Shown here one piece after another: positions 5,245 to 11,740 of a DNA stretch of 64,000 nucleotides. The translations under genes were made by a program, and so were the position numbers. The DNA lies in the sequence record NC_047884.1; one strand, written 5' to 3'. Numbering within the stretch: the stretch's first letter is position 1; every line of letters begins with the position of its first letter. The notes below the pieces were generated by a model, which was not told the DNA's origin, made no database searches, and saw nothing but the letters and a program-made list of their open reading frames with translations. This DNA comes from Escherichia phage saus132.

Positions 5245-5517
5245 TTAAACTCCTGATTCTTCAGCCAGATCAAGCCCAACCAATGTGATTGCCATAATAG
5301 CCGCGCCATGTTCTTTCTCTCCTAGCTCTTTGGCTTGAGTGAGAATATTGAGGAATTGCTTTTGAAAATCTGCAACTTCTTCTGTCATGCCTGCTTCAGC
5401 AATAATTCCTTTCAGCATAAAGCGTTGTGCCGTAATTTCAGGATTAGCCATTTGTTTTCTCCAGTTATTTAGAATGTAAGCCAAACTTAGGATCATAGCG
5501 ATCGTAAGTAGTACCAT
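5245..5517 (-). CDS. hypothetical protein (90 aa)
   Basis: ORF; hydrophobic N-terminal segment. Confidence 0.45.
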   Translation of the reverse strand: MVLLTIAMILSLAYILNNWRKQMANPEITAQRFMLKGIIAEAGMTEEVADFQKQFLNILTQAKELGEKEHGAAIMAITLVGLDLAEESGV

Positions 5518-5602
5518 TAGTTGAAGCCTTGATGCTATGAAAACGACAATACATAAATTTACGCAGTGCTTTCTTAATAGCTTTCATTTTATTTCCTTAA
5601 TT

Positions 5603-5679
5603 TGGTAGGGGTGGTGGGATTCGAACCCACAAAACCTGAATTTTAAGTCCAGTACCTATGCCAATTCGATTACACCCCC
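5603..5679 (-). tRNA. tRNA with anticodon UAA (Leu-decoding) but short variable loop (type I)
   Basis: Acceptor GGGGGTG/CACCCCT, A73, anticodon arm CTGGA-CTTAAAA-TTCAG, T arm GTGGG-TTCGAAT-CCCAC, CCA encoded. Confidence 0.55.
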
Positions 5680-5687
5680 ATGTAATC

Positions 5688-6041
5688 TTAGCGAATCTCT
5701 AAACCCTGGAAATATCGAGGGAATGGAGAGCCAACTTCAAAATTGATGCCCCAGTTAAGTTCAACGAGTTCAGATTTATTAAGATCTAGGCCATTACCTT
5801 CAAAGATATAGCCGTAAACCGCAGGGAACATAGCTGCTAGATCTTCCATATCGGAATGAGCATTGTGTTCTTCACGTAACTGCTCAAACTCTTCAAAGAA
5901 CTTTTCTAGGAAGAACTCAGGTACGATGAACGTTACCACATCAGTAGAATCATCAGTACGATACACCGTAGCTTGGAACAAGCCAACACCTAAAAGGTTT
6001 ATTGCCGGAGTAGTAAAAATATCCATCTTAACCTCGCTCAA
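5688..6041 (-). CDS. hypothetical protein (117 aa)
   Basis: ORF; no recognisable motif. Confidence 0.45.
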   Translation of the reverse strand: MSEVKMDIFTTPAINLLGVGLFQATVYRTDDSTDVVTFIVPEFFLEKFFEEFEQLREEHNAHSDMEDLAAMFPAVYGYIFEGNGLDLNKSELVELNWGINFEVGSPFPRYFQGLEIR

Positions 6042-6213
6042 TGTCTAGAGAAATACCACATTCAGGATTAATACCAGAACCATTACAATATGTACAAACG
6101 TATGTATTATACCGTGTATCACCGGGTTCAGCATCGTTCCACTCACCTACTCCGAAGCATTTTGGGCAGGCACACTCTTCTAGCTCTTGCTTGAGTTCTT
6201 GAAATTTGGACAT
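6028..6213 (-). CDS. small zinc-finger protein (61 aa)
   Basis: CPKCFGVGEW and CTYCNGSG resemble DnaJ-type CxxCxGxG zinc finger repeats. Confidence 0.45.
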   Translation of the reverse strand: MSKFQELKQELEECACPKCFGVGEWNDAEPGDTRYNTYVCTYCNGSGINPECGISLDIERG

Positions 6214-6221
6214 ATAGTCTC

Positions 6222-6410
6222 CTAGTTAATTACTTTTGAGGCTTCTAAAGCATTGACGTAGTAAACGTCTTCTACTTTATACATATAGTCTACTACTTTG
6301 TCCATAGCATGTAGTTCAGATGTAGCCTTTACTAGTCTGTACCCTTGTTTAAACTCGTCCGAATGTTCTCTATCTTGTGCAAATTTAACAGAAACTATGA
6401 ATAATTCCAT
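6222..6410 (-). CDS. hypothetical protein (62 aa)
   Basis: ORF; no recognisable motif. Confidence 0.4.
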   Translation of the reverse strand: MELFIVSVKFAQDREHSDEFKQGYRLVKATSELHAMDKVVDYMYKVEDVYYVNALEASKVIN

Positions 6411-6429
6411 TAGTTGTCCTTATTTAATT

Positions 6430-10806: not shown

Positions 10807-10881
10807 TGGCCGAGGTGACAGGATTCGAACCTGCATAAAGGAATTTAGAAGACTCCTGCCTATCCCTTAGACTACACCCCG
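10807..10881 (-). tRNA. tRNA-Arg (UCU)
   Basis: Acceptor CGGGGTG/CACCTCG, anticodon arm GGAGT-CTTCTAA-ATTCC, T arm GCAGG-TTCGAAT-CCTGT, CCA encoded. Confidence 0.7.
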
Positions 10882-11740
10882 TTTAGGTATTTTTAAGAAC
10901 TCTTATAAAAGCTCTTAAAGATACCCGACGGTAGGTAGGGTCAGCCCCCTCAGATTAAGCTCTGCAGCCCTTCCGTCAGACAATATCTTCCAGTTTAAGT
11001 CAGGGTGACTTTGTGGTTATGTTCTCCGTATGTGAAGAACTCGGTTAGGCTTAGGTCATGACTCCCAGCCTACTGCTGCCGCTCAACAGGAATTATCGCG
11101 AATTACCTGTACTATTGGGCACCATTAGTGACATCTCTCATGTCAGCGTTTCCCACTCTCATATTCACGCGGTCTGTTAGAATCGCACCTCCGATTTTCG
11201 ATGCGAAGCTGGATGCCTAGTCTCAGGTTAAACGGGGCACACACTAGGCAGTGATCCCGAGTTCCGAGTTTGGTTGAGGCCGTCAGGTTTCCTCGTGGTT
11301 TAGCTGTTTCGATTCTAACCTAATACTGATCAGGTGGCGTACCTCCTGAACTGTCATAGTATGTACTCCAGCAGCGAATGCTTATCCGGTATAAGCCCGA
11401 GTTATCTGATTCTTTCCGACCGCAGGATTCGAACCTGCATCTTCCACCAGTTACGGTTTGATATTACCGTTTATACTAGGACGGCAGTGTTATCACATAA
11501 GTCAGTTCGACACCCCACTAACATAAACTAGAGAAGAGTTTACGAGATTTCGGGACAGCTCCCGAGTTTTCCGCAGATTTTCAGTTCCCTATCAATAGCA
11601 ATAAGCGTTAGCTCGTAGCCTCTCTCAGAGTACTTACTAGTCTCCAACTCACCGACTCTATTCAGTGGAATAGCTATCCTAGTAGGAATCACTAAACTCA
11701 CTCAGCGTAATCGGCTCGCTGTTCTCTAATTTATGAATCT

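What the first reader, a model, noticed from the sequence alone, without database searches (positions are those of the whole stretch)
5603..5679. Type I (short variable loop) tRNA with anticodon UAA
Seen in sequence: clean acceptor, anticodon (CTGGA-CTTAAAA-TTCAG) and T arms, A73 and CCA, 77 nt. Established knowledge: anticodon UAA decodes Leu UUA/UUG, and bacterial and phage Leu tRNAs normally have a long variable arm. Inference: an unusual Leu isoacceptor or a tRNA with altered identity. It is not an ochre suppressor (that would need anticodon UUA).
Basis: partly seen in the sequence, partly recalled or inferred. Interest (0 to 1): 0.4.

Follow-up and report, generated by a model that had tools for sequence, protein, structure and literature searches.

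The report
Short-armed phage leucine tRNA (anticodon UAA)
This is a real tRNA gene of a T5-like phage that reads the leucine codons UUA/UUG but lacks the long extra arm that leucine tRNAs normally carry; it keeps every feature the host's leucine-charging enzyme needs, so it is most likely an ordinary working leucine tRNA in an uncommon, mostly phage-borne format.

Summary
Window 5603-5679 (minus strand) encodes a 77-nt tRNA with anticodon UAA, a 5-nt variable loop, A73 and an encoded CCA (ARAGORN; Rfam tRNA 57.4 bits).

The window is a T5-like Epseptimavirus. The gene is nearly invariant in more than 300 T5-like phage records, most of which annotate it tRNA-Leu. The T5 type strain lacks it and has the homing-endonuclease gene hegA in that slot.

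The tRNA carries the whole E. coli LeuRS recognition set: A73, A15-U48, G18G19 and A20a. It also has the leucine-type D arm, which I found in 62% of Leu tRNAs and 0.4% of non-Leu tRNAs from the same loci. According to a 2023 review, LeuRS needs neither the long arm nor the anticodon.

UUA/UUG codons in the window align with Leu in T5 orthologues, so there is no sign of recoding. UUA makes up 23% of Leu codons in the window.

The format is not unique. Collection scans found at least 108 clean examples in viral contigs and 57 in bacterial tRNA arrays, with compensatory changes in all 20 stem pairs. About 13% of phage Leu(UAR) tRNAs in an arm-agnostic sample were of this kind.

Verdict: a working but atypical Leu isoacceptor. 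It is neither a suppressor nor an identity switch, and its interest is moderate.

The parts
5603..5679 (-). Complete tRNA gene, 77 nt, anticodon UAA, class I (short variable loop) format, CCA encoded
   Evidence: ARAGORN; Rfam RF00005 at 57.4 bits; sequence
5673..5679 (-). Acceptor stem, 5' strand (tRNA positions 1-7, GGGGGUG). It pairs with 5607-5613, and the first pair is G1.U72.
   Evidence: Sequence. G.U at this pair occurs in 37 of 96 related short-armed Leu tRNAs.
5654..5670 (-). D arm of leucine type: 3-bp stem (A10-U25, U11.G24, C12-G23), unpaired G13 and A22, loop A14 A15 U16 U17 G18 G19 C20 A20a U21
   Evidence: Alignments with E. coli leuZ and leuW and with phage Leu tRNAs. The signature occurs in 224 of 359 Leu tRNAs and 9 of 2045 non-Leu tRNAs.
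5636..5652 (-). Anticodon arm CUGGA-CUUAAAA-UUCAG. The anticodon U34 A35 A36 lies at 5643-5645. A36 A37 A38 is the motif used by the host i6A37 enzyme MiaA (established knowledge).
   Evidence: ARAGORN anticodon position 35; sequence
5631..5635 (-). Variable loop G44 U45 U46 U47 U48, 5 nt, in place of the 13-17-nt arm of ordinary Leu tRNAs. U48 is the partner of A15.
   Evidence: Alignment with leuZ (87 nt), leuW (85 nt) and T5 Leu1 (85 nt). The consensus R-U-U-Y-U is conserved in 95 viral examples.
5614..5630 (-). T arm GUGGG-UUCGAAU-CCCAC, containing U54, U55, C56 and A58
   Evidence: Sequence; Rfam alignment
5603..5613 (-). Acceptor stem 3' strand (5607-5613), discriminator A73 (5606) and encoded CCA (5603-5605)
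   Evidence: Sequence. A73 occurs in 108 of 108 viral and 55 of 57 bacterial short-armed examples, although the search pattern did not constrain it.
5467..6423 (-). Segment that carries this tRNA and three small ORFs. It has no counterpart in the T5 type strain, where T5.074 and the HNH endonuclease gene hegA occupy the slot.
   Evidence: blastn synteny; annotations of MF431736 and NC_005859
6621..6649 (-). Sigma-70-like promoter (TTGCCA-17-TATAAT) upstream of tRNA-Ser(GCU), tRNA(CAU), three ORFs and this tRNA. It is the probable start of the transcript that contains the tRNA (inferred).
   Evidence: Consensus scan, 11 of 12 matches. It falls where T5 annotates promoter P15b. The number of promoter-like sites in the region is not above chance.

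Best explanation
This is a functional phage-encoded leucine tRNA, tRNA-Leu(UAA), built in a class I format with a 5-nt variable loop instead of the long arm.

Proposed mechanism, all steps inferred:
1. It is transcribed with neighbouring tRNAs and small ORFs of the early tRNA region, then cut out by host RNase P and 3' processing enzymes. The CCA end is already encoded.
2. Host enzymes probably modify it as they modify host tRNA-Leu(UAA), since it has U34 and the A36-A37-A38 motif.
3. Host leucyl-tRNA synthetase charges it. In E. coli this enzyme reads A73 and the elbow (A15-U48, G18G19, A20a, and the D-loop/T-loop contacts), not the anticodon and not the long arm.
4. It then decodes UUA and UUG. 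UUA is used more heavily by the AT-rich phage than by the host.

The missing arm is best explained by relaxed constraint. Among the three long-armed tRNA families, only Leu can lose the arm without losing its synthetase.
For: Shown by tools:
- It is a real tRNA.
- The gene is 100% identical in MF431736 and at least 95% identical at full length in more than 320 T5-like records, most of which annotate it tRNA-Leu.
- All positions the review PMC9976931 lists as E. coli leucine determinants are present: A73, A15-U48, G18G19, A20a, U54-A58 and G19-C56 partners (for the list; for the sequence).
- The same review states that the long arm and the anticodon are dispensable for E. coli LeuRS.
- The D-arm signature is specific to leucine: 62% of Leu against 0.4% of non-Leu tRNAs in the same loci, and 49% in Leu anticodons that my search pattern did not select.
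- Among the phage's own tRNAs, Leu(UAG) gives the best alignment score. That tRNA itself has a reduced 9-nt variable region.
- In 96 short-armed Leu tRNAs, all 20 cloverleaf pairs covary. The covariation score is 0.97, against 0.26 when shuffled and at most 0.18 when slid.
- Window UUA and UUG codons align with Leu in T5 orthologues in 28 of 34 and 33 of 35 cases, at 82% overall identity.
- UUA is 23% of Leu codons in the window and CUA 16%. The E. coli values of roughly 13% and 4% come from established knowledge. The phage's two Leu tRNAs (UAA and UAG) therefore cover the codons it over-uses.
- In the same loci, Ser tRNAs keep the long arm in 149 of 150 cases and Tyr tRNAs mostly do (71 of 83 are 83 nt or longer). 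That matches the known need of SerRS and bacterial TyrRS for the arm (PMC9976931 and PMC7609411).
Against: - No expression, modification or aminoacylation data exist for this tRNA in anything I could search.
- The T5 type strain grows without it, so it is dispensable, at least in laboratory hosts.
- Overall sequence identity does not single out Leu as the nearest isotype: T5 tRNA-Tyr scores 78%.
- The codon-supply argument is correlative. One study cited here found no general link between phage tRNAs and phage codon frequency (PMC10264068).
- Leucylation of arm-less tRNA-Leu is documented for engineered E. coli molecules, not for this natural sequence.
Confidence: 0.85

Rival explanations
1. 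Altered identity. The tRNA is charged by a synthetase other than LeuRS, so UUA/UUG codons are partly read as another amino acid during infection.
For: Class I architecture is the format of non-Leu tRNAs. A35 and A36 are shared with tRNA-Phe(GAA), and A73 is shared with many isotypes (sequence).
Against: - The full LeuRS determinant set and a leucine-specific D arm are present.
- There is no G3:U70 (it is G3-C70), no G34 for PheRS, no U35 for LysRS or TyrRS, no CAU and no C35 (sequence; identity rules from PMC9976931).
- The phage tRNA-Phe is among the least similar tRNAs.
- UUA/UUG positions align with Leu in T5, which lacks the gene, at the background identity level and symmetrically.
Confidence: 0.03
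2. A gene without a decoding role: a decaying pseudo-tRNA, a recombination or processing signal in the tRNA region, or a decoy that soaks up a host factor.
For: - The gene is absent from the T5 type strain, so it is dispensable.
- tRNA genes in this region do recombine. Phage APCEc03 carries a chimeric, non-pairing hybrid of the two short Leu genes.
- The T5 annotation lists several tRNA-like stable RNAs of unknown function.
Against: - The sequence is 100% conserved across most of more than 300 records, while the flanks diverge to about 80%.
- The cloverleaf is perfect and the CCA is encoded.
- The wider family shows compensatory changes in all 20 pairs, with A73 and the anticodon loop invariant. 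That is the signature of selection on a working tRNA.
Confidence: 0.05
3. A working Leu tRNA whose arm loss is adaptive, not neutral. Removing the long arm lets the phage copy escape a host tRNA-targeting defence or toxin that recognises class II architecture, while the host tRNA-Leu is destroyed.
For: - Phage tRNAs are known to evade anticodon nucleases through sequence changes (PMC10264068; PMC11555353; PMC11464382, listed).
- Short-armed Leu tRNAs are concentrated in phages and mobile tRNA arrays.
- They mostly form their own sequence groups: 84 of 94 have another short-armed tRNA as nearest neighbour once the arm is removed.
- The variable-loop consensus R-U-U-Y-U is conserved.
Against: - No Leu-specific or arm-dependent bacterial nuclease turned up in the papers I read. 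HepS cuts Thr, Ile and Ser tRNAs, and the bacterial Schlafen paper reports no Leu or arm dependence in the passages found.
- Ser and Tyr tRNAs in the same arrays keep their arms. That fits relaxed constraint on Leu alone at least as well.
- About 87% of the sampled phage Leu(UAR) tRNAs keep the arm.
Confidence: 0.12

Closest known systems
Canonical bacterial and phage class II tRNA-Leu: E. coli leuZ tRNA-Leu(UAA) 87 nt, leuW tRNA-Leu(UAG) 85 nt, T5 tRNA-Leu1(UAG) 85 nt
   Same: It shares the anticodon with leuZ. It also shares A73, U8, A14, A15, G18G19, A20a, A22, U48, a 3-bp D stem with unpaired positions 13 and 22, and the T-loop contacts (alignment A3). The anticodon loop ends in A36-A37-A38, as in leuZ.
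   Different: The variable region is 5 nt, not 13-17 nt with a stem. It has C32 where leuZ has U32, and a G1.U72 opening pair. No E. coli chromosomal tRNA is similar by blastn.
Short-variable-loop tRNA-Leu genes of phage tRNA clusters and bacterial tRNA arrays (noted in passing for a Mycobacterium tRNA gene cluster, PMC6582537)
   Same: The format is the same: 74-78 nt, a Leu anticodon, A73, a leucine-type D arm, and location among many other tRNA genes, often with HNH endonuclease genes nearby. The window tRNA's nearest relatives are metagenomic short-armed Leu(UAA) tRNAs, at 13-15 differences in 69 positions.
   Different: The published remark concerns Leu(UAG) in mycobacteria and gives no analysis of identity or function. 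In my sample the UAA version is the rarer one (4 of 62 UAA against 8 of 39 UAG).
Animal mitochondrial tRNA-Leu(UUR)
   Same: It is a natural class I format Leu tRNA with anticodon UAA. Its identity is set mainly by A73 and A14, without a long arm (PMC9976931).
   Different: It is organellar, is charged by a mitochondrial LeuRS, and has degenerate D/T loops and a floppy anticodon stem. The phage tRNA has a fully canonical bacterial elbow. Common descent is not implied.
Engineered minimal E. coli tRNA-Leu lacking the variable arm (work summarised in PMC9976931)
   Same: These molecules show that E. coli LeuRS still charges and edits tRNA-Leu without the long arm, provided A73 and the D/T-loop tertiary contacts are intact. 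This is the mechanism proposed here.
   Different: They are laboratory constructs, some of which also lack the anticodon arm. The phage tRNA is a natural, conserved gene with a complete anticodon arm.

Membership tests
tRNA (Rfam RF00005) | Score above the curated gathering threshold of the covariance model over the full model length | tested here: met
   57.4 bits against a gathering score of 29, model positions 1-71 of 71. ARAGORN also calls it.
tRNA (Rfam RF00005) | Cloverleaf maintained by compensatory changes in relatives | tested here: met
   In 96 sequences, 99.4% of cells are paired and all 20 pairs have changes on both sides. The score is 0.97, against 0.26 shuffled and at most 0.18 slid. 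The set was pre-filtered for mostly paired stems, so the percentage paired is inflated. The covariation measures are not.
Bacterial tRNA-Leu (substrate of E. coli-type LeuRS) | Discriminator A73 | tested here: met
   A at tRNA position 73, window 5606. It is invariant in 108 of 108 viral relatives although the search pattern did not constrain it.
Bacterial tRNA-Leu (substrate of E. coli-type LeuRS) | Elbow determinants: A15-U48 pair, G18G19 at the leucine-type position, A20a, U54-A58, G19-C56 | tested here: met
   All the bases are present at the same positions as in E. coli leuZ and leuW. The list of determinants comes from PMC9976931. Only the bases are shown; the tertiary pairs themselves are inferred.
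Bacterial tRNA-Leu (substrate of E. coli-type LeuRS) | Long variable arm (class II architecture) | tested here: not met
   The variable loop is 5 nt. This feature characterises the family but, according to PMC9976931, is not an identity determinant for E. coli LeuRS. Its absence makes the tRNA an atypical member without excluding it.
Bacterial tRNA-Leu (substrate of E. coli-type LeuRS) | Anticodon that reads Leu codons | tested here: met
   The anticodon UAA reads UUA/UUG. These codons align with Leu in T5 orthologues.
Bacterial tRNA-Leu (substrate of E. coli-type LeuRS) | Actual leucylation by LeuRS | not testable with these tools
   This needs an aminoacylation assay or charged-tRNA sequencing.
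Ochre suppressor tRNA | Anticodon UUA (or a modified equivalent) that reads UAA | tested here: not met
   The anticodon is 5'-UAA-3'.
tRNA-Ala-type identity switch | G3:U70 pair | tested here: not met
   Pair 3-70 is G-C.

The most novel reading that the evidence does not exclude
Loss of the long arm from leucine tRNAs may be a recurrent, selected trait of phage-borne and array-borne tRNA sets, not a neutral shrinkage. It could make the mobile copy invisible to a host defence nuclease or toxin, or to a phage-encoded shut-off factor, that recognises class II tRNA-Leu by its arm. If so, an undiscovered arm-dependent tRNA-Leu-targeting system would exist in enterobacteria and elsewhere.
Probability: 0.12. 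Interest if true: 0.7.

Novelty: new member of a known kind. Interest (0 to 1): 0.38.

Why it matters
[quoted passage not shown] This gene and the relatives found here are a clear exception in bacterial systems, in three settings:
- more than 300 T5-like phage genomes;
- at least 108 clean examples in metagenomic viral contigs;
- at least 57 examples in bacterial tRNA arrays.

The exception fits what is known of bacterial LeuRS, and it amounts to a natural experiment. Within the same tRNA arrays, Leu tRNAs lose the arm while Ser and Tyr tRNAs keep it, which mirrors the known requirements of each synthetase.

There are also practical consequences. Such tRNAs are compact, natural LeuRS substrates of possible use in tRNA engineering. 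Annotation pipelines should not treat them as suspect. They also offer a test of whether any tRNA-targeting defence recognises class II architecture.

For this particular window, though, the gene is already annotated as tRNA-Leu in public records, and its function is most likely routine codon supply.

Tried and rejected
- **Single-sequence folding.** It gave a non-cloverleaf minimum-energy structure with an unremarkable z-score. I set it aside as uninformative for tRNAs.
- **blastn against 5,426 E. coli genomes.** The only hits were T-arm matches to plasmid 'tRNA-OTHER' genes, so no host progenitor could be identified.
- **Global pairwise identity to the other phage and host tRNAs.** It does not discriminate isotypes: T5 tRNA-Tyr reaches 78% and Leu(UAG) 77%. 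I relied on position-specific determinants instead.
The T5 type strain has no homologue.
- **Defence-evasion lead.** I checked the bacterial Schlafen paper, the anticodon-loop evasion paper, the retron Eco7 paper and the HepS paper. None reports a Leu-specific or arm-dependent nuclease, so the idea stays speculative.
- **Literature searches for a description of phage class I tRNA-Leu.** They yielded one passing remark, on mycobacterial tRNA clusters. One search was wasted because the prefix 'leu' matched 'leukemia'. One paper, PMC11840918, is not held.
- **A first arm-agnostic collection pattern.** I rewrote it on the opposite strand.
- **Denominator of T5-like genomes.** A neighbouring-tRNA query gave 218 records. 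It was not comparable because of megablast thresholds, so I report no presence frequency.

Full report
**1. What is there**

ARAGORN finds 18 tRNA genes on the minus strand of the first 11 kb of the window. One lies at 5603-5679: 77 nt, tRNA-Leu, anticodon taa at position 35. The Rfam tRNA model matches 5606-5679 over its full length at 57.4 bits, against a gathering score of 29.

Read on the minus strand, the gene is GGGGGUG UA AUC GAAUUGGCAUA GGU A CUGGA CUUAAAA UUCAG GUUUU GUGGG UUCGAAU CCCAC CACCCCU A CCA. Its parts are:
- a 7-bp acceptor stem opening with G1.U72;
- a 3-bp D stem with G13 and A22 unpaired;
- a 5-bp anticodon stem with loop C32-U33-U34-A35-A36-A37-A38;
- a variable loop of only five bases;
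- a standard T arm;
- A73 and an encoded CCA.

The single-sequence energy fold does not reproduce the cloverleaf, but that is usual for tRNAs and carries little weight here.

**2. Where the window comes from, and who else has the gene**

The 477 bases around the gene are 100% identical to the T5-like phage chee130_1 (MF431736, genus Epseptimavirus) and to several others. In all, 365 phage records match.

The 77-nt gene alone is at least 99% identical in 291 records and 95-99% identical in 33 more. These are phages of Salmonella, Escherichia, Shigella, Citrobacter and Klebsiella, and most records annotate the gene tRNA-Leu.

The full tRNA region of chee130_1 holds about 30 tRNA genes. Among them is a second Leu tRNA with anticodon UAG, 81 nt long, lying outside the window.

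The T5 type strain NC_005859 does not have the UAA gene. Neither ARAGORN nor a 3-mismatch search finds it. A synteny comparison shows that window 5467-6423, which holds the tRNA and three small ORFs, is replaced in T5 by T5.074 and the HNH homing-endonuclease gene hegA. The flanks align at about 80%.

**3. Which amino acid**

The review PMC9976931 summarises E. coli leucine identity as follows:
- A73 is crucial.
- The A15-U48 pair, G18G19 and A20a in the D loop, and the G18:U55, G19-C56 and U54:A58 contacts are required.
- tRNA-Leu variants lacking the long arm remain active.

The window tRNA has every one of these bases, at the same positions as E. coli leuZ (UAA, 87 nt) and leuW (UAG, 85 nt), which I fetched from MG1655 and aligned.

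I then scored the signature U8, R13-A14-A15-N-N-G18-G19-N-A-N-A.
- It occurs in 224 of 359 tRNAs with Leu anticodons and in 9 of 2,045 others.
- Among Leu anticodons that my search pattern could not have selected (CAA, CAG, GAG, AAG), it occurs in 39 of 79.

The rules for other synthetases are not met. Pair 3-70 is G-C, and position 34 is U, not the G that PheRS needs. Position 35 is A, whereas LysRS and TyrRS need U and ArgRS needs C (identity rules from PMC9976931).

Codon evidence agrees. In 18 ORF pairs shared with T5 (82% amino-acid identity), window UUA codons face Leu in 28 of 34 cases and UUG in 33 of 35. The reverse comparison gives similar numbers, so there is no trace of recoding.

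**4. What it is for**

The window has 39.9% G+C. In 39 long ORFs (14,036 codons), the shares of Leu codons are UUA 23%, CUU 21%, CUA 16% and CUG 24%. From established knowledge, E. coli uses CUG for about half of its Leu codons, UUA for about 13% and CUA for about 4%, and has a single leuZ gene.

The phage's two Leu tRNAs, UAA and UAG, thus cover the Leu codons that the phage uses more than its host does. This is the classical codon-supply argument. It is correlative, and one study found no general link between phage tRNAs and phage codon frequency (PMC10264068).

A sigma-70-like site on the minus strand at 6649-6621 (11 of 12 matches) coincides with the promoter P15b annotated in T5. It would drive a transcript reading Ser(GCU), tRNA(CAU), three ORFs and then this tRNA. 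Processing, modification and charging are all inferred.

**5. The format is a family, not a one-off**

*Named phages.* Short Leu(UAG) tRNAs of 77 nt occur in Vibrio phage JSF12, Aeromonas phage LAh_8 and Obesumbacterium phage Ob_P. Within T5-like phages, the Leu(UAG) gene comes in 85-nt (T5), 81-nt (chee130_1) and 77-nt (Ob_P) forms.

*Viral contigs.* I scanned IMG/VR with a pattern that fixes class I spacing, a UAA or UAG anticodon and the leucine D loop. The scan hit its 120-locus limit. Of 125 matches, 108 are clean cloverleaves, all 108 have A73, and 95 are distinct sequences.

On an alignment of these with the window tRNA, 99.4% of cells pair and all 20 stem pairs show compensatory changes. 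The covariation score is 0.97, against 0.26 in shuffles and at most 0.18 when partners are slid. The variable loop has a conserved R-U-U-Y-U consensus.

*Bacterial genomes.* The same pattern in 185,579 bacterial and archaeal genomes also hit the limit. There, 57 of 121 matches are clean cloverleaves and 55 of those have A73. They come mainly from Chryseobacterium and other Flavobacteriia, and from Terriglobales.

These bacterial examples sit in dense tRNA arrays, with a median of 8 tRNA genes per 8 kb and up to 31. In such arrays the other Leu isoacceptors are usually short too.

*How common the format is.* An arm-agnostic version of the pattern returned 120 viral loci, of which 16 carried the short form (13%). 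By anticodon, 4 of 62 UAA tRNAs and 8 of 39 UAG tRNAs were short. The discriminator was A in 101 of 101.

*Relationships.* With the variable region removed, short-armed tRNAs are mostly each other's nearest neighbours (84 of 94). The window tRNA's closest relatives are metagenomic short-armed Leu(UAA) tRNAs. This suggests a small number of lineages circulating among phages and arrays.

**6. Why the arm can go**

In the same loci, Ser tRNAs are long in 149 of 150 cases and Tyr tRNAs are 83 nt or longer in 71 of 83. SerRS and bacterial TyrRS use the long arm, and E. coli-type LeuRS does not (PMC9976931, PMC7609411).

Relaxed constraint on Leu alone therefore explains the pattern without any further assumption.

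An adaptive reading remains possible: escape from a defence that recognises class II architecture. Nothing in the papers I read supports it, however. HepS cuts Thr, Ile and Ser tRNAs, and the bacterial Schlafen study reports no dependence on Leu or on the arm in the passages found.

**7. Prior knowledge and novelty**

The gene is already annotated as tRNA-Leu in hundreds of GenBank records.

The only published remark on the format that I found in the searchable library concerns a mycobacterial tRNA gene cluster, whose tRNA-Leu(TAG) 'has a short variable loop' unlike the chromosomal copy (PMC6582537). The 2023 identity review still states that Leu tRNAs have the long arm everywhere except animal mitochondria.

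I therefore file this as a new member of a sparsely documented known kind. The breadth of the family shown here is the more interesting result, but it rests on capped scans, and no experiment yet shows charging.

**8. Verdict**

My confidence that it is a working tRNA-Leu charged by host LeuRS is 0.85. Interest is moderate, at 0.38.

Noticed in passing
L249 1201-1277 (Escherichia phage APCEc03, KR422353.1 1293-1369): This is a mosaic of the short Leu(UAA) gene and an Ob_P-type short Leu(UAG) gene. The acceptor strands no longer pair and ARAGORN does not call it. Ser(UGA) and His genes follow directly. It looks like a deletion of several kb of the tRNA region by recombination between the two paralogous Leu genes.
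   Followed up: partly
L006 4625-4709 (T5), L001 18131-18211 (chee130_1), L005 5992-6068 (Ob_P): The Leu(UAG) gene of T5-like phages exists in 85-nt, 81-nt (9-nt variable region UCUUCGGGU) and 77-nt forms, so intermediates in arm length occur among close relatives. The 77-nt Ob_P gene has a different acceptor stem, so it is a replacement and not a simple in-place deletion.
   Followed up: partly
L005 4257-4328 (Obesumbacterium phage Ob_P): ARAGORN calls a 72-nt 'tRNA-SeC' with anticodon UCA in the tRNA region. It is too short for a true selenocysteine tRNA and could be an opal-suppressor-like or Trp-derived tRNA.
   Followed up: no
window 11414-11485 (- strand): There is a borderline Rfam tRNA match (29.3 bits against a gathering score of 29) that ARAGORN does not call. 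It lies upstream of tRNA-Arg(UCU) at 10807-10881. In T5 the corresponding area is annotated as 'RNAX, stable RNA with unknown functions', and ARAGORN calls an odd tRNA-Ser(ACU) there (L006 14432-14505).
   Followed up: no
L129, L127, L189, L203 and other bacterial loci: These are dense tRNA arrays, with up to 31 tRNA genes in 8 kb, in Elusimicrobia, Acidobacteriota, Planctomycetota, Flavobacteriia and other groups. Every Leu isoacceptor present (GAG, CAA, CAG, UAG, UAA) is 74-78 nt. In Chryseobacterium the short Leu(UAG) recurs across many species. I could not tell whether these genomes also keep long-armed copies.
   Followed up: partly
Alignment A4 (96 short-armed Leu tRNAs), column 38 = tRNA position 37: Most short-armed Leu(UAG) tRNAs have the anticodon loop CUUAGAA, with A37 where E. 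coli leuW has G37. That would remove the m1G37 site typical of CUN-reading Leu tRNAs. A paper on phage Sf14 lists the same three loop differences from the host (PMC12482277).
   Followed up: no
window 5673-5679 with 5607-5613; alignment A4 columns 1 and 73: The acceptor stem opens with a G1.U72 wobble in the window tRNA and in 37 of 96 short-armed Leu tRNAs. The reason is unknown.
   Followed up: no
L006 (NC_005859) tRNA feature notes: The T5 reference annotation records, tRNA by tRNA, whether changing the anticodon turns it into an amber suppressor. The 85-nt Leu1(UAG) does convert, which fits anticodon-independent charging by LeuRS. The notes write the replacement anticodon as 5'-CAU-3', apparently a slip for CUA.
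   Followed up: no
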